Below, one piece after another: positions 9,001 to 41,972 of a stretch of DNA of 46,142 nucleotides. Numbering within the stretch: the first letter of the stretch is position 1; every line of letters starts with the position of its first letter. A model generated the notes under the pieces. It had not been told where the DNA came from and did no database searches. It worked only from the letters and a program-made list of their open reading frames with translations. Source of the DNA: Barthelona sp. PAP020 (lineage: Eukaryota); the NCBI GenBank assembly GCA_040182905.1, contig JARQWU010000057.1, forward strand, positions 1-46,142, read 5' to 3'. Made by a program: the position numbers and the translations under genes.

Positions 9001-12000
9001 GCTTGAACATTGAAAGTAGCGGCATTTATCAAAATTCCAGCATCCTCCTCAACATACAACTTATTATAGAGTGTTGCATCGGTTGCATCAATTTTCAAGT
9101 CTCCTTTTTCAACATAAATTTCTCCATAAATATTAGTTTCAACATTAATATAGAATACTGATGTATTTGTTCCAGTAACATTCAAAGTACCCTTTACAAT
9201 GAAATATGAAGCAGGATTAACATCGTCAGTAACAATCTTCAAATCGTCAGTGATACTATGAGACACATTCATAAAAGCACCATCAGCAACATACAATTTT
9301 GCAGTTCCAGACAGATCAATAATGTAGTTATCAAAAATGAACTCTCCGTAGATGTACAAGATTCTGTTAGTGATAATCAAATCATTGTGAAGAATCAAGT
9401 GATTAGTTGAAGTGTTTGAAGAAGAACCAATTTGAACACCTCCAAATATTTCATAATTTTCTTTGATCAATATCAGAGCTTGAGCACCGCTTATCGTTCC
9501 ATTATATTGTGTCAAATTGCCAACAGTTAAATTGGACATTTCGTTAACACAAAGGTTTGATTCATTCAACAAATGAATGTGATAAGTAACATTCAAATCA
9601 CTTTCACGTTGAACATTCAATAATGAAGAATTGTACAATTCAATTCTTGGAATAATAACTGATGCACCTTTTTGGGTAACAGGAGGTGTAGGAACAGTAA
9701 CTGTACCATCATAAATAATGATAATGGTATCAGAATTGTCAATTATTAATTCATTATGCAATTTCACATAATTTGTTATTGAAGTAGGGACATTGAATGC
9801 AATGTTTCCTGTAGAATTAAATTCAGCCTTGAAATTGACTTCACAATTTCCTTCAAACAACAAATCAATATCTCCTTCAATAAGTAACGAATTGGCTAAA
9901 TTGTAAGAATTGTCAGCAAATACAATGTTGTTGTTGAAACAAGTCTCATTATAAGATTTGACAGAGGTATCAATAGTACCACCTCCTTTAATATTCAAGA
10001 TTGCATTATCAAACATGAGAATGTTGGTTCTTGAATCAATTTTAATGAATAAAGTCATTTCACCATTAACATATATTTCTCCTTGATTATTCAATAACGA
10101 AGAGATTAATCCAGATTTAGGATCTTCAAAGACAGTAGTGCCATTGGCAAAATACTTGTCAAATATTCTCAATTCTGCAGACCAATCCATTTCGATTGTG
10201 ACATTATTGGAATGTACTTCACCCTTGCACTCAACAATTCTTTCATGCAATTTTATTGTGTTGTTTGATTCAATTAATAAATGATCTTCAAAAATAGTTC
10301 TGCCACCCAAACCTTTGATAAAGGTATCTTTCCAAATGGCATGCTGCTTGGCAACAACTTCACCAGATCCTTTAAGAATTCCATTGTTAAGATATGTAAT
10401 TCCCTTGATGTTAAAATCTCCGTTGACAGTGATATTACCATCATTAAAGATAAAATCGTTTCTGACTTCCCATTCAACACCACTATTTTGGGTAATTTCT
10501 CCATCATTCATGGTAACATCACAGAAAGAAATTAATGACTGACCAGAAGTTTGTGACATTTGAGTACTACCATTGTTGAAATTGAATGGCGCGCCACAAT
10601 TGGAAGCATTGAAAGGGGCAACAATTAATAAATTACCTTCGTTGAAATCAATGGGTAATACGGTAGAAATGAAACCAGAAAGTGTAACAGTGGCATCAAA
10701 CAAAATAATTGGACCAACTGCAGTGATATTGGCGGTATTAGCGAAAACAAACACACCTTGAGTGAAGTTAAGAGTTGAATTCTCAGAAACAAGAACTAAA
10801 CCAGTAATACTAGCACCCGCATTCAATTTAGCTTCACCTTCAGAAACATTAAATGTTCCATCAATCCACAATTTGGTTTCAAAAATAGTATTATTATGCA
10901 TAATAACATCACCTTTAATAACAAGACCTGTGGCAGCATAGAAAATACCACCAGTTTCAATATCAAAGGTTGCACCAGCTAATACTGTCATTTTAGCATC
11001 AACTGTTCCCAACAAATCAGCACCACTCCAAGATGCAGTTCCACGAATTTCAATATTCTTTTCTTTCCAACCTTTTGTAACATTTGTACTGATGTTCAAA
11101 TGTCCAATGACAATAAGTTTTCCATATCCTTCCATATCACCACCAAACCAATCAAAATCACCACCACTTATTGTAATGTCACCAGCACCAGCAATTTTAC
11201 CGGAGTAGAATACACCACCACTTTGGAATTCCCAAGGCTCAACAGCAGTAAAGTTACCGTTTGTAATATTGACTTTACGTTCAACAATAGTCTTGGAATC
11301 AGCACTAACTTCACCACCTAACATAATAAGTGAAGGTAACATGAAAGGATTAGTGGAAGAACCACCAGATAAGATAAGAGAACCATTATTGATCACAATG
11401 TCAGGTTTGTTGACAAATATTGTATCTGAGAACAATGTCAACGAACCACTCTCAACTCTCAAAGTTGAATTTGAAGTAACATTAAATGTGGTATATGAGA
11501 ACATTGTTGCACCATTTACAATGAAGAAACCTGACCCTTGAATTAATAGATCACTTATAAGATAGATAACACCTGAAGTAAATTCAAATCCAGACGTCTC
11601 ATCATATAACAAAGTACCACCATATGAAGAGTCACTTGAAATAATAACTTTAGTGGAAGCTAATGCAGCTAAAACTGCTCCTGCTTGATTGTGGATATAA
11701 ATAGAAACTTCAACAGTTCCACCACAACTGAATTCAATGAGATCATAGTTCTTCAAAAGAGGAGAAGAAGAAACACCAGGAATTAGTTGAAGGTTTGAGG
11801 CTTGCAAGTAGAATTTACCTTTGTTGTTGATAATTGGTGAATTATCTAATGATAAATATCCTGAAGCATAGTTTATTGTACCTTCATTGATAATTTCTCT
11901 TTGATCCAAAGTAACAATACCGTTGATATTCAGAGTATCGTTGATTTTTACAGAACCACTGCCTTTCAAATAACCACCATTCCATTCGAATTTATTGTTT

Positions 12001-15000
12001 GCTTTGACAATACCAGTACCAGTGATAACACCAGAATTGAAATTGACATCACCTCTAACTTCTAAGGTATTAACATCCATTTTAACATAAGAAAGAGAAC
12101 CAGTGATATTAACATCTTTCATTACAACAACACTACCGTCCATTTCAACAGTACCATTATATACAACAAGACTGTTCAATGTGAAACAATTTCTTGAAGG
12201 ATCTAATGGTGCAGTAACCTTGGCTGTACCACCATCAACAACTAAATCAACTCCAAATCTTTCACTTTCATCACATGAACCAGAAAGAATGTTAACAATA
12301 GCTCCTGATTTGACAATGACTTCAGACCTGATGGGATATATATCCTGAGTACCAGTATCAATTTCAATACCTTGACCTTCAGAAATAACTTCACCTTCAG
12401 TTGTTAATTTTTCCAAAGCAAATTCCATTCTTCCAAATGTTCCAGCTTTGAGATATGAATCTGAATAACCACCACCAATGAAAGTGACAGTACCATTATC
12501 AATATTAATTCTACCACTATTGGCCAATGACCATTCAATGATTGCTCTACTCACAGAATAATCAGGTTCATCACCTGGTGAAATGTTATCACAGGGAGCA
12601 ATAGGTTTTCTGATGGTACCATAATAAGTACCCATAAAATTGTAATATGAAATACAATTCTTCATGACAATAGGATCGGTTGGTGTGATATATGATTGAG
12701 CATCCACAGCAGATTGAACAGAAGTTGCGAAAGATACTAAATTACTCAGACCTTCATAAACAAGAGCGTGTGTTATTTTGGTCTTGGTCGCTTGAAGAAC
12801 AAACTTATAATCACCATTTGATAATTCATCATCAAAATCGATTGAATAAATTTGATATCCTCTGAATAAGATTGTCATAACACCTTCTTCGGTAAAGTCA
12901 ACAACCAAAGCACCATAATCAATTGAAGCAAAACTAATCACAAATTGAACATATTCACAATGAGAATAAATTGTTTCATTTGTTCCAACTATACATCCGG
13001 TAACATAACCTTTTCTTGTTAATTTGACTGCATAATTCATGACAACAATTGAAGGAGTTCCTGGATCATAATACATCTCTAATTCTAAAATATTCTCAAA
13101 ACCAAATCTGATGATAGTTCCTGTTGCATCACTGTCTGGTCTAAAACCAACAACAAATGCAAGAGCATCAGTTTTGAATAATCTGAAACCAACAGCAGTC
13201 ATTTGTGTATCAGCAAAATAAGCGTAGCCATTACTATATACTGGATCAGTCAGAGCATCTTCATAAACTCCGTAGAATTGATGAACATAGCAGAAGTTAG
13301 TATCTCCTGCAACTCTTTCATAATAACTGTTTTTAGTAATATTACCATAATTTTCGAGTGTGGCTTTTCCAGTACTACCTCTTAATAACATAGAGTTACC
13401 AAAAGTAATTGATGCATCTTGATTTGACAATGATGCAGAACTTTCACCCCAAACAACAGCATCCCAAATAGAAAGATTCATTTTATTCAATAATTTTCTG
13501 CCAGACAAAAGTTTGTAGAATGTGGTTTCAATGGAACTTTCTCCATATAAAACAGTAGTTCCTAAACCACTCATTGTACCTTCAATCCAAACAAAATTGC
13601 CAAAAGTACTGAAAGAACCTGTACCAGCTAATTCAGAGTTACCATCTTGAACAAAATTACCATATAAGTCAACCTTACCAGTAATCGTAACTTTACCTTC
13701 ATCAGATAATGTGAAATTATTCTTTATTTCCATATCTCCAATGATATTGACTTCTCCATTTTTAGAACTTAAACCAGAAATAACAATAGGTGCACTACTT
13801 GATTGTTTGAATGTTAATAAACCTCCTTCAACAATAAAAGTAGTATTCAAGTCATTGAATTGAACATCTGATGAAACTTGTGCAGATCCCTCCTTAATTG
13901 TGATAAGACCATTGACATGAGTGAAATTGTTGTTAATTGAAACTTGAGATGACCCTGAATTAACAATGAGATCACCTTCATCACTTACAAATGATAACTC
14001 AGAATAAAGAGTGTGAACTTCATCTCCTAATTCAACACTAGAATGATCTTGAAGAGTAATAATACCATAAAGATCAGAACCACCATCAAATACAACACTA
14101 CTGTTAACCATACTAATGTTACTCGTAGTGTGTGCATAGAACACAGATTCAAACGTGGTATTTGAAACATCCGAAAGAATCATAACACCATAGTTGTGGA
14201 ATTCAGAAGGTACATCACCAATATCCTCAATAGCAACATCTTCGGTATTTTCAAGAGTAAATGTGGCATCAAGACTATTGACTATTCTCGAAAATTCATC
14301 AAGAATTAATCTACCACCATTCCAAGTTGCTTCATGTTCAATACTAAGAGAAGATTGAATCATATATTTTGAATCACCCGACATTTCAACATCATAGGCA
14401 TACACAATACCAATATTGGTAACATTACCACCAGACCAATTGTAGACTTCAGTAACATTTAAACCATCAGCAACAACAACTTCTCCACAACTTAATGAGA
14501 AATTTTTAAAAGTGAAGAAAGAACAATGGAAATCGATTGTTCCGCCATTGACAGCTACTAAAGCAATATCAACATCACTTGGAGGACATCTAACAGATAA
14601 GTATCCACCTAACACTTGAACTACACCATCACCAGTCATTGAAGTACCAGTTAACCATTCAAAATTAGAAGTGTTAAATGATAGAGTGGAACCTTCTTTA
14701 GCATTCATCAAACCTTTGTTGAAACCATAAACTTGAAGAATCAATTCACCAGCTTCTGTTGACAAATTACCAAAGTTATAGAATTTAGAATCCCAAACAG
14801 CAACACTGTCCCCTTCTTTCTTTAATGTACCATAATTATAAAGATTGATACCAAACACATCTGCTTCATTTTCCAAGAGAACTCTGAGAACAGCATCCTC
14901 CAAAATAATGAAGCTTCCTTGTGAAAACCAACCAGCCATGGAAGAATATCCCTTCACAAGAACACCAGTGTTAATTAAATTGATGACAAATTCATGAACA

Positions 15001-18000
15001 ATTACATAAGAACCATTCCAATTTAAGGTTTGAGCGTTAAGGGTACCATATGAAGTCATAGCCAAACTGTTATCAGATGTGCTATCACCAACAACATTAA
15101 CATACGTGGCATTCAATGTACCATCTGATGAAAATTCACCCTTTTGAAGTCTAAGTTCTTCAGTAATCTCAGTTGGATAGCAACCTTGGATTAAAGTACC
15201 ACCATTCAACCAAATAGAAGGAAGAGAGTACAATTCAATATTTGTATTACCACCTGTAATTTCAATAGCTGCAGTTCCAGCAATAGTAGATTCTCTAAAA
15301 TAGAAATCACCAGCTGCAACTTCAAACCATCCATCTTCTGCACCAGTTGTATCAGCAGTGGAGCGGAAAACACCAATAGCACCTTCGAAAATAATTTTAG
15401 CCTTTCTTGGAATAATTACCAAAGAAGTTTTGAAATCTAAGGCAGAAACACCACCAAATCTAAGTGTAGCAGCGGTAGTAGCATGTCCTTCAATTCTTGT
15501 ATTCAGTTCATTATTTGTACCATTAGATGCCAAGGAACCTTCATTGAGGTAAAGAATACCTCCATTTTGAACAAAACCTCCAGTAGCTGAGAGAGTAATG
15601 ACAGAAGAACCAAATTTGTACACATCATCGTATGCTTCAATCAAAAGATTTCCCAACCAATCAACTGAACCAGCAAGATTCAAACGATCATGAGTTTCTA
15701 ATACCCAAGCAGCTCGATCATTGTATGACATGGAAGCATTATTTTGAGGAATTAAATCAACTGGACAATATGAAATCCATGTGAAGGGATCTGTAGCTCT
15801 AATGTTTCCAGAAGTCCATTGAGCTGAAGATACAGTATTTTGAGTAATTAAAGTACCAGAGAGAAGTGTTTTGTTACGAGGTGAATCAATGAATAAACTT
15901 GTAGAAACTGTGATGGAAGACAGTAATGCACCAGAAATGGTCAATGTGTCCAACTCAAAACGGTCAACGGTCAAATCAAAATCACCTCTAAGAGTACCAG
16001 ATTCTTTAGCTGATCCATCGCTTTCAAAACTGGGCAAACCATACAACAAACCGATGTTACATTCAACATCAATTGCAACGTCTGCAGTTTTGATGAACAA
16101 ATTGGAAATATTACAACTTGAAGATTTTACTAACAAAGTACCATCAACAGCTTGTACCGTAGCATTTCCGGTTATTGACTGAATGTCAAAAATACCATAA
16201 ACAGTTGTGTAACCATCAAATTCATAATATCCATCACCTGCAAGAATACTATCATCATAAATAGTTGCAGTTGAAGTGTTAACGAAAGAAATTGTGCTAC
16301 CATCAGTAACATTCATTATACCATAACATTCAACAACATCATGGAAGTAAACAATACCATTATCACTGTAAATGAAACCAGACTCTTTAATAGTAATTGG
16401 AGAATAAACATTAAGAGTGCTATCTTCAATTGAACGAATTGTACCATTTTCCTTGACAATGAAAGAGGAATAAGTTGAATAAGTTGTTATATTTGTCATA
16501 GAACTATCAGCAATGCGAAGTTCATCTTCAATCAACATTGATGCATCATCAAAAAGAGTAATATTTGCTCCTTCAGCAAATAAGATTCCTTGAGAAACAA
16601 TAGAACCTTTTCCAACGACTTCAATGTTTTCTTGAAGATGTCCTTCCTTTGTTTCATGAACAATCAAACGAATTCCATCAAGAGTTGCATTTTTAACAAC
16701 GGCACCTTCCAAAATCAAGTCACCAATACCTTCTAAATCGACTTTATAAATGACAGATGATGCACCAAGTGTTAAAGCACCATTTACAACAATTTGTCCT
16801 TCATAAACAGCCAAATTATCAAAAGATAAGTCCCAATAATCCAAATCAAACACACCACCATACATTTTAAAGGTAGTACCAAACGATTCTAAATTGGCAC
16901 CACTACGGAATCTATAATAAGAATCACCTGTACCATTGGACAAGAAACGATCGGACATGATCATATAAGTACCATTCAACACATGAGTTTCACCTTCAAT
17001 TTTAATTTCTGAATTAATAAGAGATGGTTCGCTTGATTGAGAACTAAAACTGAAAATACCATTACCAAGCAATTTGGAATCAGAAATCAGATTACACAAG
17101 TCAAATTGGATTTTACCATCAAGAGAAGCATTGAAAATACCAGCAGATGCAATAGGTGATAAAGTGGAAGAACCAATAATTAGAGTACCTTTAGTAACAT
17201 TGAAGAATGAATTTGTACCACCAATAATATTCCAAGCTAACAAAACTTCCATTTCCGAATCTAAAACAAGATTTCCATTTTGATATAAGATACCTTGATT
17301 GGTAGTATTAAATTCACACAAATCAGTACCACCTTTTTTGAATTCGATTGAACCGTAATTTGTGAAATAAGAGTTATCAGCAGTTAATGCGATGCTTCCA
17401 AAAACAAAATAACCATAATTGATAAATTGAATGTCAGATTTCAACATAACAGGAACACTGGTATCAGTAGAATTCATGAGAGAATTACCTGAGATGTTAC
17501 ACAGACCAACACCATCAAAGACAGCACCAGAACCGACAATAAGTTCACCAGTTAATTGTAAAGTACCATCATTGACAATAAGACCATATGTCGTTAAATT
17601 CTTGAGTTCAACATGTGAAGAAGTAACTGTCATTTGACTGGTTGAATCAATCAAACTGACAGCTGCTTGTCTGGTTAAGACATTTTTGAAAACAATATTA
17701 GAATTGTCAGAGAAGGAGAAAACCATATGTTCAATTGCATCACTTGAATAGGATGTGAATGTTTGAATATTCAAAATAGCATTTTCGATGAAAACAACAG
17801 TTGAAGTAATATCAAAAATACCATTGGAATCAAAAACATGATTTCCAGAAACTTCAATGTAACCTTCTCCAGTAATAAGACCTGTGGGATTATTGGTGAA
17901 CACACCATCTTCTCCACAAATTAATGAACCATCGGCAGTAATATTGACAGTTTTATCATTTTCAAATTGTCCAACAAAAGTGAACTCACTTTCGATGACA

Positions 18001-21000
18001 AAATCATTTTGATTTTGAATAAAGACTGAAATTTCTAAATCACCAGTAACAACAATACGTCCCAAATTGGTTAAATAACCAGGACTAGCAACATCTGTAA
18101 AAATAGAGTATCCAGAAGATGACATTTGGAATTCACCAGTTGCTGCAACAATTATCTTGAAATATGATTCAACAGTGATATTACCTGAATTCCATTCTAA
18201 TTGTTTTTCAATAATCAAAGAACCTGAAGAGAATGTTTTCTCATCATCACCTTCAATAACAACACTTTTTTTGGCAGATAATTCTCCTAATCCCATCCAA
18301 TCAACACTTTGAATTGTCAATAACTCATCAACACTTGTATCATCATCAATTACAACAGTACCACCAACAATGGTGAATTCTTGTACAATTTCAACTTTAG
18401 CAAAAATAATTTTTGCTTTTGAGAAATCTAAATTTGAAGCAGTGTTCGGATCGGAAGCATTAAACCAAGCAGTATAATCAAGTCTAATATTACTAATTTT
18501 GGTCAAATATGGTCTAGAAAATTCAACAACACCACCACTTACATTTAATAAAGTGGAATTCGATTCAGAGAAATTTAATTCTCCAGTAAATTCAACATAG
18601 TTCTCTTCTGATTTGGAATAATTGGCAACAACATTAAATGAACTCTCATTATAGAAATTGATCACACCAGCTTGATGATAAAATTCACCAGTATGAATAT
18701 GAATTGAAGCATCGTCAAACAAATCAAATGTACCATAATTATTTGCTTCTAAAGACTCAAATAACATGATGTTATCTTCGGTTATTAATGTGTAACCATC
18801 AGAAAGTTGATTAAATTTATGTTCAAACACAATAGGACGAGTTTGATTAATAAAACCTGAATTTTCAAAAGGAATAGAAAAAGTAACATTTTCAGAATAT
18901 TCATTGAACATGCGTCCGGTTGAATCAATAGCAAAGAGTGTCTCAGTTAATAAAACATTCTCTGATGATTCAGGTTTCAAATTAACATAACCTTCAAAAA
19001 CAACATCTCCGCTGACAAGAATATTACCACCAGATTTAAATTCAATTGTGGTTGTGTTAATGAAGACACTATTCTCAAAAATGAGCTGTCTTTCATCCAA
19101 AATTTTAACTGAATCTGATGTGATTGTAGAAACAGCTTGTGATCTGATGAAACCTTCACCCTTAATAGTTCCACCATACCAGTTGAAATTGGTGGTAATG
19201 ATGAATGATGATGAAGATTCAACAACACCTTCAGCCAAATTCAAAGTGACAATCTTACAATCACCAGCACAAGTAACAGTACCACCAGCAACATCAACAA
19301 AACCTTGAGTTTCACCAGTTGATAAATATTCAAATATTGAAGTGCCAGTTCTTTTACCAACACGAATTGTGGGAATATCCATAATACCACCCATTTTAAC
19401 GGTACCTTGTAACAAAGTGAAATTACCCAAACCAGTCATTCGTGATAATTCATGATAATAAACAACTTTAGTGGTGTCAATTATCAATTTGGAATCACTT
19501 TGCATCATATGAATAAGGGAACCAGTATATAATTCCATGTAACCTGTAATTTCAATATCTGTATATTTGGTCATATTAATAGTACCATGATTCAATACAT
19601 TCCAATTGGTTGAAATGTTGTAGGCATTATTATTATTATCGCCAATAAATTCTCCAGTAATTAAACCACTTTCATAATTAATCAAGGAACAATGTTCACT
19701 GGTACCCATTGACAAATACATTTTGTTGCTTATATCAACAGCCAAGAAAATAAGTTGGTTGTGATTTCTTATACCACCATAAGTATAACATTGTATTGAT
19801 TTTTCAATCTTTAATGTACCATGATTGTGAATCTGGGCATACAAATAATCAGTTGTCAAATCAGATCTGATCAGACCTTCAGCTGTACTTGCTAAAATGA
19901 GATAAGATGTTTTGGTAATATCACCATGAACCCAATCAAAAGATTTATGAACCATGATTGCATCATATAACTGCAATTCATGAGTTAATAACCATTCATC
20001 CATAATTAAATTCTGTACATGGGTAAAACTACTCACGTTAACAATAGCATTAGCAGAGATAAACAAAACATCAATGTATTCATCATAAGTAGGTTGAGTA
20101 CCTGCCAATCGTAATTCACCGTTATAGACAGAAATATTTCCTTCAAAATGAGACTCAGATTCAAGCATAAGTACACCATTATTCAAAATGAAATGACCAT
20201 TTCCTTCTAAAATACCTCTAAATGTGGTAAAATGATGTACACTAGCTGTAAGAACATTGATATATCCATTAATATTGGCATAATCACTAACTAACGCAAA
20301 TTTGACAAAATTAATTCCTTCTCCATTATGAATGAAGCTATTCATACGAATTTCAGAATCAATAGTTGAATTTTCACCAGTAAATTCAGTATGGTTGAGT
20401 CTCAACAAACCATCACCTGTGGATTCAACAGGACCAACAATATTAGTATAACCAGATGAAACAATGAATGAAGTTTTAATATCACGAATCTCCAAATAAT
20501 AAGAATACATAACTAAATCAATGGTTGAATTCACCCAAGTAAAGTTGTGTGTATAAATACTTTGTTCCAAAACAAAAGTAGCATTAGTAACGTTTAATAA
20601 TTGAGTTGTGACAGGATTAGATCCATTAATGATAACGTTATCACTTACAAATGTCTCCTCAACAAACAAAGGTGCATCGACATGTAAGAGTGAATCTCCT
20701 GAAATTTCAAGATGATCAATTTCAATTCTGCCATTGTAATATGGAATATGAACAGCACCATCATTGATAAATACATTTTCAAAACTGTTTGTATTGTTTG
20801 GTGCAAAATGAACAATGGAATTGAGGGTTCTTTCAACAAAATAAATCTCAGAAAGATCAAGATTTTGAGGATGGAAATGTAAGCCCCAACCTCCAAGTTT
20901 CAAAGAACCTCCACCAACTATGTTGGATGAAGAACCAACAAATGAACCTGTTTGATAGAAGATAGGTTGAATATTATAATAAGAAGAAGGTTTGAAATTA

Positions 21001-24000
21001 ACAATAGGACTGTCCAAATAATAAATTCTTGAAACACTGGGTGCCAATGTTAAAGAAGAAGTTGCATCAATGAATGCTTGACATTTCATTTGAATTCTAC
21101 CTCCAAATCTCAAAGTAGAAGAACTCAAAACTTGAATTGAAACCTCAGCATCATCATCAAAAACAACACCAGCTTCAATAGAAGAATTGAAACCATTTTC
21201 AGAAATGATATGATTGTTAAAATGGAAAACAGTATTATCATCTGACAATTGAGAAGAAACAAGAGAAACATCACCAGTTACACCAACAGTGACATTCTTG
21301 TGGAAACGTACTGAAGCAGATTGTCCAATTTCAATGAAACCCTTTTTGAAACGGAATTCTCCAAAGAATTCCATGGAAACATTAGCAATATATGCATCTT
21401 CAAAATCATTTTCAAAGTATGAATCTTCAATAACATAAACAGTAGATTGTCCATCAAATCCACCCGAAATCCAGTTCAAATTAGAAATGGTAACACTTCC
21501 TTCAGCGTTATTAATAACACTACCGTTTGTAAGTGTCACAGTATCAACAACCATTTCAAAAGTACCAGAAAGATGATATAGAGCACCCGAACGATCAACA
21601 TTCATTGTAAACCTGCTAACATCTGTAAAATTAGGAGAGAACACACCTCCATTGATTTCAATTGTAGGAGAAATTGAATTTTCAATTGAAGAATTGAACA
21701 AAGCAGTAATACCAGGATAGATTTCAATGATACCATCGCCTTCAATTTTAGAATTTGCAATATAAAGAATAGAATCAATATTACGGTCTTCAAATTCAGC
21801 AAATGAACTGAAATTAGAATAACCACCAAATGAACCAGCAGTATCAATAGAAACACTTGCATTTTTAACATAACCATGATCCAAGAAAAGAGTTGAACCA
21901 GCAAAAACACTAATAATGAGGTCATTGCAAGTAGATTCTACACCTTTCATAAAAGCAAAGGTAGTGGCAGATAGAGTGTTCAAAGTTGTTTCAGAATCAG
22001 TGATCAATTGTGATCCAATACCAAACAAACCACACTCTCCAATACAATCAAAACTCAAAACGTTATGAACGATAAAACCAGATCCTTCAGTAGAATCTTC
22101 AAAACCACAGAAACCAGCTTTAACAATGATATTATCAGCTTCAATCCATAAACCATCTGGCCAATCACCATCCAATGAACAATTGAAGTAAACATCTTTT
22201 TCAAATACTGGAGTCGTACCAACAAATCTAGTGTTTCTTAATGTCACATCTTCAGTGAAAACAGGTATCCAACCTGCAAAATCAATCGTACCAAAACCTA
22301 AGCTCCAATCATATGGAATTTCAAAGTGTTGACAAACATTTTGGTCAAGACATCCAATGTTAACAACACCATCATCATTAATCAATTTCAAATCTTTCAA
22401 ATCTATTGAGCTGATATCATAAATATCCAAATTACCAGATAAAACACCCAAATTAGATTCAATACCAGAATTGGGTAGAATAACAAAACTGTCATTTGCA
22501 ATAATGAAACCTGTACCAACAAGTTTACCCTTTCCAATAATGGAAGGCTTTTCTAAAATAATTGTACCATTGTTTTCAATGTAACCAATAGAATTTAAAG
22601 ATCCAAGTGTAATTTCAACATTTTCTTCAACAGTCAAGTTGGCGAATTCATGAATGTATGTACTGAGGAAAGTACAAGAAGATGTCACCTCCAAAGTACC
22701 ATTTACAATGATACGTTGTGGAAGATCTTCATTATAACTTGCGTATGTATGTGGAACAGATAAATCATTGGTAGTAAAACTGCTTGAAATCTTCAAAGTA
22801 CCAGCAATGAACATTCTAAAATATCCAGAAATATCGAATTGAGCATATGCAAATTCAAACACACCAGTATCCATAACATGAATACGAATGTCAGAAAGTG
22901 CAATAACTCTTCCAGGTGCACCAATAACAGCTGTTTGATGAACTATGATAGTACCAAATCCAGTAATATTGGTGTTATCATTTAGACCAATGAAAAGATG
23001 TTCAGTTTCAAAAATACCATTAACTTCAAGGAAACCATCAAGTCTCAATTCGTCATTTACTTTCACCAAAACATCTTGATACAATTTCATTTCTCCATCA
23101 CATCTCCAAGCAAGGTTTGCAACTTCAACATCATGAACAATTCTCAATTCCAAATCATTTGAAATAGATTGAATGATAACTGAATCATCAGTACGAGGAT
23201 AAGTTTTTAAATCCCATGAGTATGGATTTCCATGCCATTCACCATTACTGTGGACAAAATTAAAGGTGGAAGTGGCCAACAATTGATCACAACGATTACC
23301 TGTATATCCATTTGGACACAAACAAGAACCAGCAATACAATAACCAGTACCACAACCAGCACAACCTACGCCACTACAATCTTCATTTTCATATTCATCA
23401 GTACATTGACAAACATCTGAAGCAACACATGTTCCTTGAGAAGTGAAAGAACTACAATCATGGTAACATTGAGATTTTTCAACATAAAGATAATTTCCAG
23501 CTGTATTGAACAATGGTCTATAGTATAAGGTATCATTGTATTCAGGAATATTGTGAGAAATTAAATATCTGGAAGAACTTCTTAATGTTGGAATGTAACC
23601 TAATACGGTTCTACCAGAAGATAAAGGATTTTCTTCAACTTCCATTTCAACAGATCCACCCCAATAACCTGAAGATCCATACATTTCAATATAAGAATCG
23701 CTGATGATCTTTGCCCTGTATGTACCAGAATCGAGTAAAAACATGTTTGCAAATGCATAATTTGTACTCAAACAGCTAGAATCTTTTTCAACCAAATTAT
23801 AATTCCATAAATAGATAGAATCTGTTCTGCCAGCTCTAAATGTACCATAATTGGAAACATAAGTGCTGAGTAATCTGGCACTTGTACAAGTTGACTCGGT
23901 AAAATCAATTCTACCATAGTTTTCAATCTTTGTTCCATAAATACGATTATTTGTAATGTTAATCAAACCAAGATTGATAACTAAACATTGAATATAGGTA

Positions 24001-27000
24001 TAATAGGTGCTTGTTTTGTCAGACGTTATTTGACCATCAGGTAAGACAATAATTCTTCCTTCACCATCAAATCTAGGTGAATCAAAAGTATTGTTCACAT
24101 ATATTTCACCTTTAAATGTAATTTTGTTAATTTGATAAGATTGATCATTTCTCCAAGAAGCAGCAAGTATCATAACAACAGGTTCTTGTATTCCCCAATC
24201 AGGAGTGTCATAATAACTGCTTGTTGCTTGTGTCCAATTCATTTCCTTATTAAACACAAATACACCTCCTTCAAATTGAGGATAGAAACGAGGTGATAAT
24301 CTTTCAAGGTCTGTAATATCATTGTTAAAAATGGTTGTACCATTCTTGGAATGGAATTTTGGATGAGTAGATCCAACAGCAGTGCTGATCATTGATACAT
24401 TTTCCCCAAAAATGTTTTCATTGTAAAGATAAATGTAAATATTTGACAATCTCCAAGTCAACTCAACAAAGACAGAATTATCAACAATAGCAGACATAAC
24501 ACCAGAATAAACATAAATTGATGTTGTTGTGTTGCATTGAGTAAAATTAACACCATTGTGATTCTTGAAACCACCGTTAGACATCAAATGAAGTCTCAAT
24601 TCCTTTGTTGTGGAATTGAAATGAGAATCACCACCTAACAATTGATACCAATAAATGTCCAAATAAGAATAACTTCCACTGACATGATTAAACATCCACG
24701 TACCAGTAGAATACAAATCATTCTTATCACCACCATCACCACCATAGAAATACAGAATTCTATAAAATCCAGAAGTTTCAAAATGTCCCTCATTCAAAAT
24801 GTAACAATAAAGATACAAATAAGTATCGGTCTTTGCAACAGTCATATTGGCACCTTCTTTAATGTGAATGATACCATTAGAAGATGAACTACCAAAACTA
24901 GATGAGCTAGTAAAGAGGAAAAGAGAGCCAGATTCCAAAGTGATCTTTGCATCATCTCTCAAATGTAAATTCATGCCACCAGTAACATTGACATTCTTTT
25001 CAATAATAATCTCAATAGAATAAAGATAAACATTGTATGCGTTGGTCCAAATTGATGGTTCATGCAATAATAACTGTCCATTTCCACGAATATAACCTTG
25101 TTTCAAATTAAATGGACCATTAACTTCAATTACAACGTTTTCACCAACCCACAATTGAGCATTAGCACTATCTAAAGTGAAGTAAGGCAATTTCACAATT
25201 CTATTTGTCTGAGGATATGATACAGCAGGTGATAAGAAATGTAAGTTCAAACCAGAACTTGCTTCAATTATTAATGGGAACACATTAGTGTCTGAATCCT
25301 CATCAAAATACAAGTGATGTTCAGCGGTGGAAGAATAATCTGGCCAGTTTCTCAATTGAGTACGTATCAAATAACTATGACCATAAACTGGTTTAATAAT
25401 AGCATTAAATATACAATCAATAAATTGAACAACAACATCAGTGCTTTCCACATAAATTAAATGACCTGGTCCATCAAATAAAACATTTCTAACTTGATGA
25501 ATAGCACCTCCAGAAGAACGGAATCTCAACAGACCGGTGTCTCTTATGATAACACGCGTTTCATTAAAGACAGAATTTGCATATAATATCAAAGAATTTT
25601 TCATAATTCTGATACCTCTACCATCAAATTCCTCAGAAACATCATGGAAATCCCAATATGTAATCAAAGAATTCTTATCAAGTAAAACTTCATTACGATT
25701 TTCAAATAAGGGCTCCATATATGAGGAACAACTTCCTGAACCACAACGAAGAGTAAAATATGTGTTATGAATCAAATTGTAATTGATAAATCTAATTGAA
25801 TGCTTAAAACTGGCATGAGCATCAAATATTGCTTGACTTGTTGCCTGCACAGACCCATAATTGTTCAAAGTAATGTTACCATACATTCCCAAAATTGGAG
25901 TACTAGCATAGAAATCAATCATTCCTGTGTTGTCGAATACGGCATTTGTACCATAAAAATATACACTTCCGTAGATATAAATTGTACCAATGTTCTCTGT
26001 AAATTCAGACAAATAGAAAACATAATCATAATTCAATATGTTTTCTCCAGAGAATATCAAATTAACGCCAGGATCAACATAAAAACTAATTTTTTCATAA
26101 GTTTGAGAGGACATAACAGTATGTTGCTCTACAAAAGTAAAATTAACAGTTGATGCTTCAAGAACATTTCCTTCCAGAGAATTGATCTTGTTCACCAAAT
26201 AGACTTGTTTCATATCCTTTTCAACAGCTGTTGAATAATAATTATAATAATATCCATCGCTACTATACGCTTTGACAAATGCACCTCTGGCAGTGGCATT
26301 GAAGAATTGAGGATCATTGGTAATCAATTTACCACTGCTCAAATGAATATTAAAACGTTTGGTTTTTTCAATATTCCACGTCATACCTTCTTCAAAAATG
26401 AACTCTACTTCTGGAGTTAAGGCCCAATTATCACGATAACTATCACCCAAAACCAAACCAACACCATAACCAAGATCAACAGGCTTATCCATATAGACAT
26501 CAAGAATGAAATCCTTTGTAAAACGTGCACCATATTTCAAAGCAATTTTAACAATCACCTCAATATTATTACTGTATGGTTCAATGGGACGGCCATCCGT
26601 AATTGATGCATTATAAGCATCTCTAATTTCCATACGTCCTTCAAAAATAGCTGGAACAGCAATAAATGAATGATAAGCTGAACTTCTATCCCAATATGCA
26701 TACGTGCCATATTGAGTGTATTGTTCATTAGCATTGGTGTATCTTCTAATGACAGTTCCTGACTTTTTCAAATGATACAATGATTCATTATAAGAAAAAT
26801 ATCTTCCTCCACAATTGTGATATTGAGAAACAAGAATTTGTTCACCCTTCAATTCGTGAACACCTTCAACAACAATTTCTGAACGTAACAAATACCATCT
26901 TTGAGGATGACTATTGGAAAATTGATTCAATTTTCCAAGATATCCTTGAATAACCAATCTAACTCGACCCAAATAAATTTCCGAATATGTAGAATGAGAA

Positions 27001-30000
27001 TATCCAGCATCAAGTAAATACAATTCAGGCATTGTTTCAACAGTACAGAAATTGGTCAATGTATCATCCCAATTAACTTTACCACCTTGAATAGCCAATT
27101 CTTTCAAATATAATTTGTTTAAAAAGTTTAATTTACCATCTCCATACAGGAACAAATATCTTACTGTCAATTCAAAGTCATACAAATACCAACGACCACC
27201 ATCTCTCAAATGTACTAAATGTTCATCTAAACCATTAACAGTTAATCTGTTCCACAAAGTGACAGGACCGTTATCAGTGGCATTAACATATTCAACACCA
27301 AAATGAACTTTTCCATAAATCAAAAATGTTTCTGAATGATCAACAAAGTTTAATTCACCATAAAAGTGAACGGTTGAAGCTGCAACAACATACAGATAAT
27401 TGACATACAAACGAGAATCTCCTGAAAAATGCAATAACGTATTTTCAATTTGTAAATGACCTTTACTGACATTCATATAACAATTCATTTGCCAATTTAC
27501 TTCATCAGTAGCTGTATTTTGAAGAATTACACGACCATTAGTGGTGATGTTACTTTCTTTTGTAAAATTAAATCTTTGACCAACAAAATACAAAATATAA
27601 GTGTCACTATAACTTGGAAACATAGAAACAATAGTACCATTAATAAAAGCACCACCTTCATCTGTATCCCACTGTTTTGATCCCAAATATGTAACATTTA
27701 ATGTAACACCATTCAACAAAGAAATAGATGATGTACCTTGAGAATAAAAAGAAGCAGTGGTGCTCCATTCACAATCTTGATGGAATTCAAAATGCACGGG
27801 TTCAGATGTGGCAGTATTTGATCTAACATCAAGTCCTTGAACAGAACATGAAGTGGCATTCATGATCACTTTACCAGGACCATAAATAATACCATCATTG
27901 TAATCAAACTCGTCAGTAATTGTCAAAACAGCGTCGTTATACAAATATATGTAAGAAGATGCAGAGTTCATCATCAACTTGCGAATGGTGGTATTTTCGT
28001 AAATATAAAGTTTACCACTGCTGATAAGAACTTCAGGCCAAACAAAATTACCAAAATCTTGAATTGAGAAAGTGGAAGTGGTGGTAGTCAATGACAATTT
28101 TGACTCATCCCAAACAAAATTAACACCTTCATCAAAGACAATTGAACCAGAATCACCAGTTGAAAAATCACCAAAAACGTTAACATCACCTTTGAATAAA
28201 ACTCTACCATATGATACAGTAAATGTACAAGTAGAACTGATTGTTAAATCAACATCTTCAAACACATTTTCTCCCAATAAGGATAAAACAATAGCATTGG
28301 GACCATTCAAATTCATTACACCTTGAATAATTGATCCACCTTTAAATTTCACAGTTTTTGAATTTAAAGAAAAATCAACAACACCATAAGAATAAACAGG
28401 AACATCGAAACCATGATTTGAAGTTCCATTTACAATCATATAATCATAGTTAATAAATTCATTTAATGTAGAACCAGAAACAATGGTAACAGCAGTATCT
28501 GAATTGGCTTCATCAATATACGTACCATAATTAATAAAACTAGTATCATACAAATAGATAATAGATCTATAATTTCTGAAAATATCATTATTAATAAATT
28601 GCTTGTAATAAATATACACATAATCAGCTAAATATGTATAAGCATTCAAAGACACATTACCAGTTCCTAAGAAATATATTTTTTGAAGATGTGTATTGTA
28701 GTCGAATGAAATAGCTGCATCATTAGTTACAGTCACATAACCACTGCCATAACCACTTGCTCCATGAGCAGTAAAGGTACCATTAAATGTATAACTGTAA
28801 GAATGCATATCTAATTGAGCACTTTCACTTAATCTCACATTTCCTAAATTGGCAATGTTGGGTTGAGTATAAGAAGGTTTATAAGGAGCAGTCACATCAG
28901 GATGATGATAATATCCAATAAACATCTTTGAACCTTGACTTAAATACACATGAGAATTGACATTATTGTTATCAAAGGTTCCATAAACATAGATGTGTGC
29001 ATATCTCTTTGCTAATATGTAATAAAGATTTGAGTATCCCAAGAAATAGAAAGTGTCATAACTGGGATCATGAGTCGCGGATGTATCACCTTCATAATCG
29101 AAAATGACCTGTGAATAAGTATGAATGGATGATGTGAAGGTTCCTTCAAATACAGCAAGTCTGGTAAACATAATTGCTGAATTATCCAGATACAACTTAC
29201 CTTCTTCTTTCAAATGGAATTGACCTTGCACTCTTACTGTGTTACTGGTATATGTAGCAATATTCATTCTTCCATAAACTTCAAAAACAAAATTATCTGC
29301 TGGGAAACTGGAAGTAACCATCATGTACGTGGAAGAATCTGCGTAAATATGATTAAAAACACCTGTGTGACCAACCATAACCAAAGAATCTACACCTTGG
29401 AATCTTGATTTTGAATTAGCAGTACCATTCATTACAAAGTTTGAATCACTCAAATAAACACGTGCTTCAGCCGAAAATGTTGTCATAGTTGCACCATAAT
29501 TGACAACAAAAGCAGCTTCTTCAATAATATTCAAGAAATACAAATCACAAGTTACCAAAATGTTAATATCACCAGGTCCATGAATAGTTGCAACAGCAGA
29601 AGTGGAAGAAGCTCCCACAACATAGAAATAATTAACAGTAACAGCATCAGGTACAGTCAAATGTGCCAAATTTTTAATTGTCAATCTGTTAAAATGCATA
29701 TTGGCAGATTTAGTAACAAAATGTTGGTGTGTACAAATTCTTAATTCTTCCACACCATTGACATTCATTGAAAAACCATCATAAATATTCAACCTAGCAG
29801 GATCAACAGTATAAATCCAATTTTCACTGTTTGTGACATAAATACGACCGTAAAATTCAACATCTACATTTGCATATATCTGGTTGGCTGCCCAAATAGT
29901 ATTTTCATCATAGAATTGAATAACACTATCAGATTGGAAGGAAACATAATTTGCACTGGTAGACCTGGCATAAAGCGTACAATTATAAAAGCTAAATTCA

Positions 30001-33000
30001 CCATTGTACAATCTTACTTGATAAGTCTTAAAATCAATGGTAGTATTAATGAAATATGAACCAAAAGATCTGAAATAGAAATTATTTGCAGCATTAATGG
30101 TGGAAAATTCCAACTGCCATTTTGCGTACAAACTGTTCGATCTTAAGGTCAATAAAGCATCATCACCAACAATATAAAATGGATTGGCAGCAGTACCAAG
30201 AACTGCAGATGTACTTGAAACATAGAATTCAGATGAAGGATGCAAAACAATCGAAGGTTCATTTTCAGCTTTCACATTACAAGTAGCAACAGTAATTTTT
30301 TCATGGATATGAATTGAAGTACCATCAATTGTTGAAGCTCCATTCAAAGTTGCCAAAGGTGTGGAGATTAAACCCAAACCTGAAACAGTACCAGTTGTTA
30401 AAGTAAAAGTAGGAGTGAACAAACTTTCGCTAATATACAATTCAGCATTGGTACCAGAAATAATCAATGAATCAACAGTCAAATTCATTGGAATGGAAAC
30501 ATAAGCATTCTCCTGAATTATCATATCAACAGAAAGAATTTCAAGACATGACTCAAAAGAAACCTTGACATTGTCTTCAATAACTAAAGTGTTCGAAATA
30601 TTGAAATTTTTGTTATCGTTGTCCAATTTAAAACTCACGTCATCTCTCATGTACAAATTGGCAGTGGTAAAATCAAAATTACCACCAATTGTAACTTCGG
30701 CATCATCAATCAAATAGAGAGATGATGAGGCTCCAACGAAATCTGTTGAAGAATCAGTAATATAACGACCATTCCTGAAATATATTTGAGTATTGGTACT
30801 AATTGTGTAAGAAGAAGTACTTTTAAGATAGAAATAATAACCTTGATATTTGATTATCATGTCACTTACAGCTGTTGAGGAATCTAAAGCACAAATGACA
30901 GGTAACAAAACATTAACAGTAACACCACTTACACCATCTGTACCATCGAAATCCATACGTCCATTATTGGTAATTGAACCCAAATTGGATGAAACAGCAT
31001 CAGTATAAATTTGATAGGTTCCAGATGCTTCGGGAATAAAACCAAAATACCCATAAATTATCATTTCACAACCAATGAGATTTAAATTACCTGTAGTCCA
31101 ACGAACAGTACCAATAATCTCCAAAATACCATTGATAAACTTAAATCCGTCACCAGTACTTTTTAAATTTAAGGTTGCTGTATTCTTTAAACTAATTTTA
31201 GCTGCAGCATCAGATATTTCAATAGAACCTGCGATACAAAGGAGATTTGTATCAATCTCTAACACACAACGGTCAGAAACAGAAAGAACTGATCTGTCTC
31301 TCATTTCAATTTGTTGACAAATTACATGTAAATGTTCAATGATCAAAGAAGAATCATCATTCAATCTGAATTTGGGAATAGTTACAACATCCAAATCATT
31401 TGATTGAACAATAACAGATGAATAATCGTTCATTGTAATAGTTTGTGCATTGATTGAATATCCAGGTAAGAAAATAACTTGACTATAATCTTCAAAAACA
31501 CTTGAAGCAGAATCAATCGCGCCGGACAATTTCAAAATACTTTCTTCTTTCAAATACACATAACCAGCACTAGTAGCCGTTAAATTGAAATTGCTATTCC
31601 AGTTGTGAGTTCCTTTCTTCAAATATAAATATGCAGGAGCTTCCAAATAAAATACATCATTCAAATTAGTGTCTGATTTAAATGAAATTTCACCTGCTGT
31701 AAAACTAATTTCAGAGCCAACACTTGCAGTTAGCACGACAGCAAAAGATACATGCCCACTATAAGAAGGATTAGTCAACATTTTACCATTTATATATACA
31801 GTAGATGTCAATTCAACAGAATCTGCTGAAATGAATGTTGGAGAGTTACTACCAGTGGCTATGTAGAATTCAGCACCAGATTGAATGTACAAGAAAGATC
31901 TATCAAAAGAAATATCTCCATAAGCCCATACAAATGTTTCAGAAATAGTAAGTGTAGTGTTAATAAATGATACAGCACCTGACACTTTTGCATTCTTTGC
32001 GTTCAAAGATAATGAAGTAAAACTACCACCATAAATAAAAATGTCATCAGCTTCAACAATACCATGACCTTTCCATGTACCACCATTGTGTACCAAAGTA
32101 GATGCAAACATTTTACCACAACCAATATGAACTGAACCATCATTAAAAGTAAATGCTGAAAGATCATCAAAATTGGCAGTATCACGCACAATTAAAGTAG
32201 CACCATCCACAATGAAAGAACCTTCTCCTTGAATTGTTCCAGCAACTGTCATATAATGATCTTTAGCAGACAATGCCGAAGAAGCTTCCAAATTAATTGA
32301 AGCAAGAGAATCAACAAGGAAATAATTCAAACAATAAATATCAACATTTGTAAATTCTTTCACAAATACAGCAGAATTTGGATAAATATGAACCTTATTC
32401 TCTCTAAATTCAGTCAATTCACCATCAAAATATGTTGAAGACAACTCATAATTAATGTAATTCCAATACATTGTGATCATAAATAGACCTCTTCTTTTGA
32501 CAATACCATAATTTTCAAAATTTGAGGCTAATTCTGAATCATCAACAGTCATAACAGAATCAACAACGGGTTCCAAATAAAAAGTAGCACCAATATTATT
32601 AATAATACTTGCTTCTTGTAAACCACGAATTTCTCCAGATTTCCAAAAAGCAAAACCTTCATTAACGACTTTGAATCTGTCCAAAATCTTTAAACCAGTA
32701 ATCATTGTGATGGAAGGAGAACTTAAAGTACCAGTACCAACTAAAGTTCCTGCTTTCCAAAGGAAAGAAGATGAAACATGGATTTCACCTTTTCCTTCAA
32801 TAACACCATTATCAAAATCAACAGATTTAACATCGAAATCCAAACAATTATACTGAATGGTACCACCACTAATGAACCACTGGGATGAAGCAGGAGGTGG
32901 TGTTCTAAAGTCAATAACACCACCAGTAACTGTGAATGGAGATCCTAAGTTTACAAATAGAACATCTTCACGGAACAAAATGTAACCTCCTTTTACAGAA

Positions 33001-41499: not shown

Positions 41500-41883
41500 A
41501 TGGAAGTTGTTTCAACCCCTAATGCCCCCCCTGCTGTTGGTTCCTATTCACAGGCTATTAAAGCTAATGGAATGGTTTTCACTTCAGGACAAATTGGACT
41601 AAAACCTGATGGACATTTTGTTAGTGACGATGTCAAAGATCAAACTCTTCAAGTTATGACCAACTTACAAGCTGTTTTGGAAGAAGCTGGAACCTCTTTT
41701 GAATTTGTTACAAGATGTAATGTTTTTGTTGCAAATATGGATGATTTTGGTGTTGTTAATGAAATTTACAAGTCATTCTTTGAACCTTATGGACGTTACC
41801 CTGCTCGTGCTTGTGTTCAAGCTGTAATTCCCAAGGGTGGAAAAGTGGAAATTTTGTGTGATGCCATTATTCCTTCTCAATAA
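41500..41883 (+). CDS. ridA: RidA / YjgF-YER057c-UK114 family reactive imine/enamine deaminase, 127 aa
   Basis: MEVVSTPNAPPAVGSYSQAIKANGMVFTSGQIG...VVNEIYKSFF...YPARACVQA...KVEI. The YSQA, SGQI, catalytic Arg (PAR) and C-terminal Glu motifs are present. The ATG at 41500 is preferred over the upstream TTG in the ORF track. Confidence 0.95.
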   Translation: MEVVSTPNAPPAVGSYSQAIKANGMVFTSGQIGLKPDGHFVSDDVKDQTLQVMTNLQAVLEEAGTSFEFVTRCNVFVANMDDFGVVNEIYKSFFEPYGRYPARACVQAVIPKGGKVEILCDAIIPSQ

Positions 41884-41972
41884 AAATGTTTTGAATTATT
41901 TCTTATTCAGTTGTTTGATAATTTTGTTGAATTTTAACTACTTTTTATTCATAATTTTTTTTATTGATAGAA

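What the first reader, a model, noticed from the sequence alone, without database searches (positions are those of the whole stretch)
23172..23468. Internal restart: EGF pair followed by a second N-cap motif, suggesting tandem cap-solenoid-EGF modules
Seen: right after the two EGFs comes TFNFVHSNGEWHGNPYSWDLKTYPRTDDSVIIQ, a G-x-W..W..P..DD-x-V-I-I motif. From memory, this kind of motif opens beta-helix regions in many large extracellular proteins. It loosely parallels the true N-terminus (DCTWWYRYNAFGVNPQGTSNTIIVQ). Both halves therefore read cap, solenoid, EGF (about aa 22-5891 and 5892-13563). Inference: the gene arose by fusion or duplication of two giant units, giving two stiff rods joined by an EGF elbow.
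Basis: partly seen in the sequence, partly recalled or inferred. Interest (0 to 1): 0.7.

Follow-up and report, generated by a model that had tools for sequence, protein, structure and literature searches.

The report
Restart cap in giant beta-helix protein
Inside one unbroken gene of more than 13,600 amino acids, two EGF-like domains are followed by a start-of-rod motif that bacterial relatives carry at their N-terminus, so the protein likely forms two stiff beta-helix rods joined end to end, a layout already predicted for fibrocystin, while the proposed doubling of the whole gene is not supported.

Summary
One ORF (minus strand, ATG 40961, at least 13,653 aa, open at the window edge) has two 6-Cys EGF-like domains (aa 5832-5891), then a cap motif found once in the protein.

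A cap profile built only from 14 outside relatives hits aa 5896-5937 alone (14.6-21 bits; controls at most 8.1). Those relatives were found through the solenoid repeat, not the cap. An alignment-based model of the cap plus 155 aa folds as a right-handed parallel beta-helix (pLDDT 73; Z about 12). Five of 27 relatives also carry an internal cap, and fibrocystin is predicted to have two G8-started beta-helices in tandem. A true loop insert at aa 9214-9473 resumes in register with no cap, unlike this junction.

Not supported: the true N-terminus does not match the cap (-2 to -8 bits; hhalign 0.2%). The halves are not co-linear and share only a degenerate ~278-aa unit. The second 'EGF' is a 4-Cys fragment followed by a PSI-like domain, and the gene continues.

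Verdict: a real internal restart of a known kind in an unusually long, unannotated protein. No evidence of whole-half duplication; fusion is untestable here.

The parts
3..40961 (-). Giant single ORF, at least 13,653 aa from ATG 40961, no stop before the window edge
40899..40961 (-). Signal-peptide-like N-terminus (aa 1-21); the most hydrophobic 19-mer in the protein, and no other window exceeds 1.84 on the Kyte-Doolittle scale
   Evidence: hydropathy; cleavage site by eye
40674..40856 (-).
23838..40570 (-). Solenoid segment 1 (about aa 130-5708): degenerate ~278-aa units, clear at aa 1200-3150, faint at aa 3150-5700
23469..23837 (-). Non-repeat segment of about 120 aa before the EGFs (aa 5709-5831). 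Beta-alternation is lost here. It sits where bacterial relatives have their closing domain but is not detectably homologous to it
23376..23468 (-). EGF-like domain 1 (aa 5832-5862, 6 Cys)
23289..23363 (-). EGF-like domain 2 (aa 5867-5891, 6 Cys, teneurin/tenascin type)
23151..23276 (-). Internal beta-helix N-cap (aa 5896-5937; W5909, W5916, P5922, D-S-V-I-I), the only one detected in the protein
22686..23285 (-). Modelled region (aa 5893-6092): cap running into a right-handed parallel beta-helix
372..23150 (-). Solenoid segment 2 (about aa 5938-13530), same ~278-aa unit
12543..13322 (-). Domain of about 260 aa inserted inside one unit (aa 9214-9473); the repeat resumes in register (profile position 180 to 185) without a cap. 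Serves as the internal control for a true loop insert; family unknown
273..323 (-). Truncated 4-Cys EGF-like piece (aa 13547-13563)
114..266 (-). PSI (plexin-repeat)-like Cys knot (aa 13566-13616); the ORF continues past it

Best explanation
The motif after the two EGF-like domains matches the N-terminal cap of a bacterial-type beta-helix family and likely starts a second, separately folding beta-helix, so the protein is likely two long rods joined through an EGF pair rather than one continuous solenoid or a doubled gene. Shown: the motif, its uniqueness in the protein, its match to relatives' N-termini, the shared ~278-aa unit, and the lack of co-linearity between the halves. Predicted: cap plus about 155 aa fold as a right-handed parallel beta-helix. 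Inferred: the two Trp and the Pro pack over the first coil, close the hydrophobic core and nucleate folding of rod 2 in the secretory pathway. Rod 1 ends about 120 aa before the EGFs. The disulfide-bonded EGFs, which lack the calcium-binding consensus, act as a spacer with some bend. At 4.8 A per coil and 20-25 aa per coil (general knowledge) the rods would be about 110-135 nm and 145-180 nm long if unbroken. The likely role is a secreted or surface-anchored glycoprotein stalk or adhesin of a eukaryotic microbe, grown by ancient amplification of the unit plus module shuffling.
For:: the unit profile alone, which has no cap, retrieved 27 proteins (best E 2e-126). 14 of 27 start with the W..W..P..D-x-V-x-I cap by pattern, and 3 more by eye; a full-length MAFFT alignment put W5909, W5916 and P5922 in columns at least 90% invariant; the outside profile hits only aa 5896-5937; pLDDT 72.8, pTM 0.68; top hits are right-handed beta-helices (4phb Z 12.4, rmsd 3.1, 168 aligned; 4i84 Z 12.3); model residue 11 onward aligns from TMEM2 residue 117, the start of its helix (8c6i Z 9.9, rmsd 3.6); relatives' caps weakly match G8 positions 1-53 (E 0.08) and Amnionless positions 7-61 (E 0.035); 5 of 27 relatives have an internal cap, 3 of the 5 directly after a closing domain; beta-alternation collapses at aa 5700-5850 and returns at 5901; the true insert at 9214-9473 resumes in register with no cap; 215 sequons against 179 +/- 12 in shuffles.
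Against: Cap 2 scores 9.5-16.6 bits in leave-one-out profiles. That is lower than 13 of the 14 relatives' own caps (18.8-55.4; one scored 3.6). The relatives' caps were picked with a W..W..P pattern, so the profile test is partly circular. The model was built from an alignment of N-terminal caps, which biases it toward this fold, and Foldseek gave no hit at E<=0.001. The relatives' closing domain is not detected before the EGFs (rank 113-152). No Pfam G8 or Amnionless hit for the window's own cap. The junction was never modelled with confidence. TMEM2 shows that domains can be inserted into a beta-helix without breaking it (PMC10206443, passages). A noise-level in-register match (2.7 bits, aa 6010-6062) exists after the EGFs. 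The host and the C-terminal anchor are unknown.
Confidence: 0.75

Rival explanations
1. Whole-module duplication: one cap-solenoid-EGF gene was doubled in tandem.
For: Both halves use the same ~278-aa unit and both are followed by Cys-rich modules. The N-terminus ranks 6th-10th among local maxima of the cap profile and has W-x5-F...P...T-I-I-V by eye.
Against: No excess of similarity at the cap-to-cap offset (1.4-1.8 hits per 1000 aa against 0.4-5.0 elsewhere). The best inter-half hits lie at scattered offsets such as 6105, 6925, 10035 and 8027. The N-terminus scores negative on the cap profile; hhalign 0.2%. The halves are about 5,900 and at least 7,750 aa. The second EGF is a 4-Cys piece plus PSI.
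Confidence: 0.07
2. Fusion of two once separate genes of the same family: an upstream solenoid-EGF gene and a downstream capped-solenoid gene that lost its signal peptide. This is an origin compatible with the best explanation.
For: The cap normally sits just behind the signal peptide in relatives (14-17 of 27), and an EGF pair before a membrane anchor is a common end of surface proteins (general knowledge).
Against: No step in GC3 (0.18-0.26 throughout) or codon usage at aa 5891 (chi-square 77 against 55-90 at other splits). Only 4 residues lie between the last EGF Cys and the cap, with no remnant of a signal or anchor. Internal caps also occur in 5 of 27 relatives, so a restart need not mark a fusion in this lineage.
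Confidence: 0.3
3. Continuous solenoid: aa 5709 to about 6010 (unknown segment, EGFs and a small capped piece) is a side insert, and the main helix runs on.
For: The break before the EGFs falls at the same unit position (profile 175-180) as the true insert at aa 9214. A 2.7-bit match at profile 166-209 follows at aa 6010-6062. TMEM2 carries inserts in an unbroken helix.
Against: That match is at noise level. The model runs as one helix from the cap through aa 6060. A cap occupies the face on which an upstream coil would have to stack (inference). The true insert has no cap.
Confidence: 0.1
4. Assembly artefact: two neighbouring or paralogous genes were misjoined at the EGF-coding DNA.
For: No reads or genome could be checked.
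Against: The frame is open across 41 kb. There are no long near-identical DNA repeats: the 20 largest families shown are at most 79% alike, and the only tandem repeat at the junction is a 34-nt, 78% Cys-codon repeat. Composition is smooth across the junction.
Confidence: 0.04

Closest known systems
Fibrocystin/polyductin (PKHD1): two G8 + PbH1 beta-helix regions
   Same: One secreted chain predicted to hold two beta-helices, each opened internally by a G8 start that is continuous with the helix and proposed to nucleate folding (bioRxiv 10.64898/2026.10.19.758525, passages; PMC13755561, passages).
   Different: Fibrocystin is 4,074 aa and its helices are TMEM2-like regions linked by domain X, with IPT and PA14 domains. 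Here the segments are about 5,600 and 7,600 aa of a different ~278-aa unit, joined by EGFs. No G8 or PbH1 Pfam hit.
G8 domain (PF10162) of TMEM2/CEMIP
   Same: G8 is the N-terminal start of a continuous right-handed beta-helix (PMC10206443, passages). The model aligns from TMEM2 residue 117 (Z 9.9); the cap-alignment profile hits 8c6i weakly (E 0.3); Atlas lead 0.82.
   Different: The window's sequence has no Pfam G8 match even at E 10, and TMEM2 does not stand above other beta-helices in the fold search.
Amnionless N-terminal beta-helix 1 (PF14828)
   Same: Right-handed beta-helix at the N-terminus (PMC6283879, passages). 3 of 18 alignment members match the Pfam model weakly (best E 0.0018).
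   Different: Amnionless helices are short domains of a 45-kDa protein. The window's own cap does not match, and the chain is not among the 50 listed fold hits.
Unnamed prokaryote-type secreted beta-helix proteins (27 hits; one placed in Rhodocyclaceae; two named filamentous hemagglutinin family by the source)
   Same: Same repeat unit (E down to 2e-126), same N-cap, and in 5 of 27 an internal cap; in P0010, P0021 and P0027 the order is helix, closing domain, new cap.
   Different: Their closing domain is not detected in the window protein.
Attractin/MEGF8-type EGF-PSI pairs and teneurin/tenascin EGFs
   Same: Teneurin-type EGF hits and a PSI-like knot after an EGF piece. The attractin comparison is recalled, not tested.
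   Different: All hits are under Pfam cut-offs, and no other Pfam domain was found in this ORF.

Membership tests
G8 domain (PF10162) | Pfam G8 match above the curated score (22.9 bits) | tested here: not met
   No hit at E<=10 for four fragments holding the cap
G8 domain (PF10162) | Forms the N-terminal start of a continuous right-handed beta-helix | tested here: met
   Predicted only: model pLDDT 72.8; aligns from TMEM2 residue 117, Z 9.9, rmsd 3.6
Fibrocystin/TMEM2 family | PbH1 helix with domain X, lectin, IPT or PA14 domains | tested here: not met
   The Pfam scan of the whole ORF in six pieces found no such family; the unit profile does not hit TMEM2 in the PDB
Amnionless (PF14828) | Pfam match; short helices with SEA domain and transmembrane helix | tested here: not met
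   No hit for the window's sequence; only 3 relatives match weakly
Amnionless (PF14828) | Structural likeness of the cap to beta-helix 1 | tested here: inconclusive
   Not among the 50 rows shown; an unlisted family is not excluded
Prokaryote-type W-W-P-capped beta-helix proteins (unnamed) | Degenerate repeat unit with W-x-G-G-x-[LI]-x-G-x-G | tested here: met
   27 hits, E 2e-126 to 3e-4; units in both halves
Prokaryote-type W-W-P-capped beta-helix proteins (unnamed) | W..W..P..D-x-V-x-I cap opening a helix | tested here: met
   Met at aa 5896-5937; not met at the true N-terminus
Prokaryote-type W-W-P-capped beta-helix proteins (unnamed) | C-terminal closing domain (G-x-[LI]-x-PG...) ending the helix | tested here: not met
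   Profile from 15 segments: -1.2 and 2.6 bits before the two Cys clusters; glocal rank 79-152
EGF-like domain | Six cysteines in EGF spacing | tested here: met
   Both junction domains have 6; the distal piece has 4. Pfam scores under cut-off
Tandem whole-module duplication | Co-linear similarity of the halves and matching caps | tested here: not met
Gene fusion | Free-standing paralog or ortholog of module 2 with its own signal peptide | not testable with these tools
   No genome; no close relative found

The most novel reading that the evidence does not exclude
A eukaryotic microbe took up a bacterial-type capped beta-helix, amplified it into a single chain of over 13,600 residues, and joined two such genes through eukaryotic EGF modules. 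The result would be a jointed surface filament about 250-300 nm long, made of the longest single-chain beta-helices yet noted, and the founding member of an undescribed family of protist surface stalks.
Probability: 0.2. Interest if true: 0.6.

Novelty: new variant of a known kind. Interest (0 to 1): 0.33.

Why it matters
An internal cap that restarts a beta-helix is a known design (fibrocystin) and recurs in this protein's prokaryote-type relatives, so the restart itself would not surprise a specialist. What is unusual is the scale (thousands of residues per rod, in one intronless ORF), the mix of a prokaryote-type repeat and cap with eukaryotic EGF and PSI modules, and the absence of any annotation or close relative. 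One chain holds both a capped restart and an uncapped in-register insert, which makes it a natural test of whether such caps nucleate beta-helix folding, as proposed for the G8 domains hit by ARPKD mutations.

Tried and rejected
No genome is held, so the paralog search could not be run. No sequencing run was listed; this is no evidence either way.

No close relative of the cap region was found: 0 of 3,914 candidates of 540-2,000 aa; 0 at E<=0.001 among 1.84 billion representatives; 0 of 1,620 candidates of 5,500-17,500 aa for aa 5001-10000; 0 of 80 metagenome and 0 of 5 viral pattern matches.

The single-sequence model of the junction was useless (pLDDT 33) and was not searched. Whole-protein self-BLAST gave 0 off-diagonal hits; chunked BLAST found the unit. 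A by-eye likeness of aa 5709-5831 to the bacterial closing domain failed profile tests. Atlas hits for both the cap region and the N-terminus were at or under 0.90 with low recognition, so they are leads only. NCBIfam gave nothing relevant. Foldseek gave no hit at E<=0.001, and Amnionless is not among the listed fold hits. A scan of species genomes with P0010 returned only 3 loci, of Rhodocyclaceae, too few to count internal caps. A recalled likeness of the 1,354-aa neighbour to SPAG17/PF6 found no support. Four look-ups of earlier findings returned nothing.

Literature searches for a described protist protein of this layout found none: 1 listing; 0; 5; 1; these were seen as listings only. A recalled paper on beta-helix caps was not held. 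No supplements were read.

Full report
Setting. The window holds one minus-strand ORF from ATG 40961 to the window edge, at least 13,653 aa without a stop. On the plus strand lie a RidA/YjgF gene (Pfam PF01042, E 2.5e-34) and a 1,354-aa ORF of no detected family. The giant protein begins with a signal-peptide-like stretch and has no other strongly hydrophobic segment. It is enriched in N-glycosylation sequons (215 against 179 +/- 12, maximum 213 in 300 local shuffles). With the EGF-like and PSI-like modules this points to a eukaryotic secreted protein (inference); no genome is held and the host is not identified.

1. The observation. Positions 23468-23172 encode two six-cysteine EGF-like domains (aa 5832-5862, 5867-5891) and then the quoted motif. 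The motif occurs once; a strict pattern appeared in 0 of 500 shuffles and a loose one in 1.4%. The second Cys cluster near the window edge is not a full EGF. It has 4 Cys (aa 13547-13563), is followed by a PSI-like domain (22.2 bits, cut-off 23.1), and the frame continues, so the second 'module' has no known end.

2. The solenoid. Chunked self-comparison shows a degenerate unit with spacings of 251-311 aa and 20-33% identity. A 278-position profile finds it in both halves, clearly at aa 1200-3150 and 7175-13420 and faintly elsewhere. An alignment of 16 units, which contains no cap, retrieved 27 proteins among 7,988 scored candidates of 495-2,000 aa (best E 2e-126). Those with any label are prokaryotic (Rhodocyclaceae; filamentous hemagglutinin family); none of 27 has the EGF pattern.

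3. The cap. 14 of the 27 relatives begin with W..W..P..D-x-V-x-I by pattern, and 3 more by eye; the rest are fragments or start otherwise. A profile of the 14 caps, without any window sequence, scores aa 5896-5937 at 14.6 and 17.2 bits (two profile lengths). The next best sites score 2.2 and 7.3, shuffles reach at most 7.6 (40 runs) and the reversed protein 5.1. Glocal scoring gives 21.3 against -1.4 for the next site and 8.1 for the reversed protein. A full-length alignment with 19 relatives placed W5909, W5916 and P5922 in columns at least 90% invariant. Two caveats apply. The caps were chosen with a W..W..P pattern, and cap 2 (9.5-16.6 bits in leave-one-out) is weaker than 13 of the 14 native caps.

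AlphaFold2 on aa 5893-6092 with 17 relatives' N-termini gave pLDDT 72.8 and pTM 0.68. The top fold hits are right-handed parallel beta-helices (Z 12.4-11, rmsd 3-4; left-handed helices give rmsd about 12), none standing out; Foldseek found nothing at E<=0.001. The model aligns to TMEM2 from residue 117 (Z 9.9), where the G8 domain starts a continuous helix (PMC10206443, passages). Relatives' caps weakly match the first 50-60 positions of G8 and Amnionless. The window's own cap matches neither. It works like a G8-type start but is not a G8 member.

4. Restart or loop insert? Three lines favour a restart. (a) Hydrophobic alternation falls to -0.2 to -1.75 over aa 5701-5900 and returns to 2.5-3.2 from aa 5901 (median 1.07). 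(b) The protein contains a true insert. A unit profile built without the overlapping row matches aa 9040-9213 at positions 4-180 (59.7 bits) and resumes at aa 9474 at position 185 (15.8 bits), with no cap. Nothing comparable spans the EGFs beyond a 2.7-bit match. (c) 5 of 27 relatives have an internal cap (4 by profile at 11-19 bits, 1 by pattern only). In 3 of the 5 it directly follows the family's closing domain. Against: that closing domain is not detected before the EGFs, and the junction model failed (pLDDT 33), so the angle and flexibility of the 'elbow' are unshown.

5. Duplication? The true N-terminus scores -2 to -8 bits on the cap profile. Its rank of 6-10 among local maxima is at most a hint. 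hhalign gives 0.2% and BLASTP E 1.5. Ungapped similarity between halves is 1.4-1.8 hits per 1,000 aa at the cap-to-cap register, against 0.4-5.0 elsewhere. There are no near-identical DNA repeats among the 20 largest families shown and no GC3 or codon step at the junction. Whole-module duplication is therefore unsupported. Fusion of two genes of one family stays possible but untested, since five searches found no close relative.

6. Mechanism. Most likely (0.75) the chain is secreted and folds as rod 1, a 120-aa end segment, two non-calcium EGFs, then a cap that seals and nucleates rod 2, which carries one looped-out 260-aa domain, then an EGF piece and PSI, then unknown parts. The nucleation role is inferred from the same proposal for fibrocystin's G8 domains (bioRxiv 10.64898/2026.10.19.758525, passages). 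The lengths (about 110-135 and 145-180 nm) rest on textbook coil geometry and assume unbroken helices; the faint region at aa 3150-5700 may hide further breaks. A stalk or adhesin role is inferred from the fold class, not shown.

7. Novelty. Tandem capped beta-helices are predicted for fibrocystin and occur in the relatives, so this is a new variant of a known kind. The new elements are the size, the EGF joint and the prokaryote-type repeat in a likely eukaryote. Four literature searches (listings only) showed no description of such a protein. Interest 0.33.

Noticed in passing
window 12543-13322 (-), aa 9214-9473: A domain of about 260 aa inserted in register inside one solenoid unit. No Pfam or PDB sequence match; by eye it resembles a lectin-like beta-sandwich (recalled, untested). 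Candidate binding domain.
   Followed up: partly
window 3-40961 (-): An intronless ORF of at least 13,653 aa built from a ~278-aa unit whose only detected relatives are prokaryote-type secreted proteins; possible gene transfer, not tested with a tree.
   Followed up: partly
window 3-323 (-): After the 4-Cys EGF piece and the PSI-like knot, the last 37 residues look beta-rich again and the frame stays open, so a further module may follow.
   Followed up: no
window 26262-27161 (-), about aa 4600-4900: A Tyr/Trp/Arg-rich stretch with no likeness to the unit (about 0 bits) and no Pfam hit; may be another insert or a long-looped region.
   Followed up: partly
window 41500-41883 (+): RidA/YjgF-family imine deaminase, divergently oriented to the giant gene; best PDB matches are Bacillus-type YabJ.
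   Followed up: partly
window 41964-46028 (+): A 1,354-aa Lys/Glu-rich ORF with no Pfam or PDB match; a recalled likeness to the flagellar central-pair protein SPAG17/PF6 was not supported.
   Followed up: partly
protein P0027, residues 1311-1527: A relative with two beta-helix segments, an internal cap and a C-terminal caspase-like domain (PF00656, E 1e-24).
   Followed up: no
proteins P0001-P0027: The shared N-cap, repeat unit and 115-127-aa closing domain of these proteins had no Pfam or NCBIfam model in the members scanned (11 and 6 proteins); they look like an unmodelled family.
   Followed up: partly
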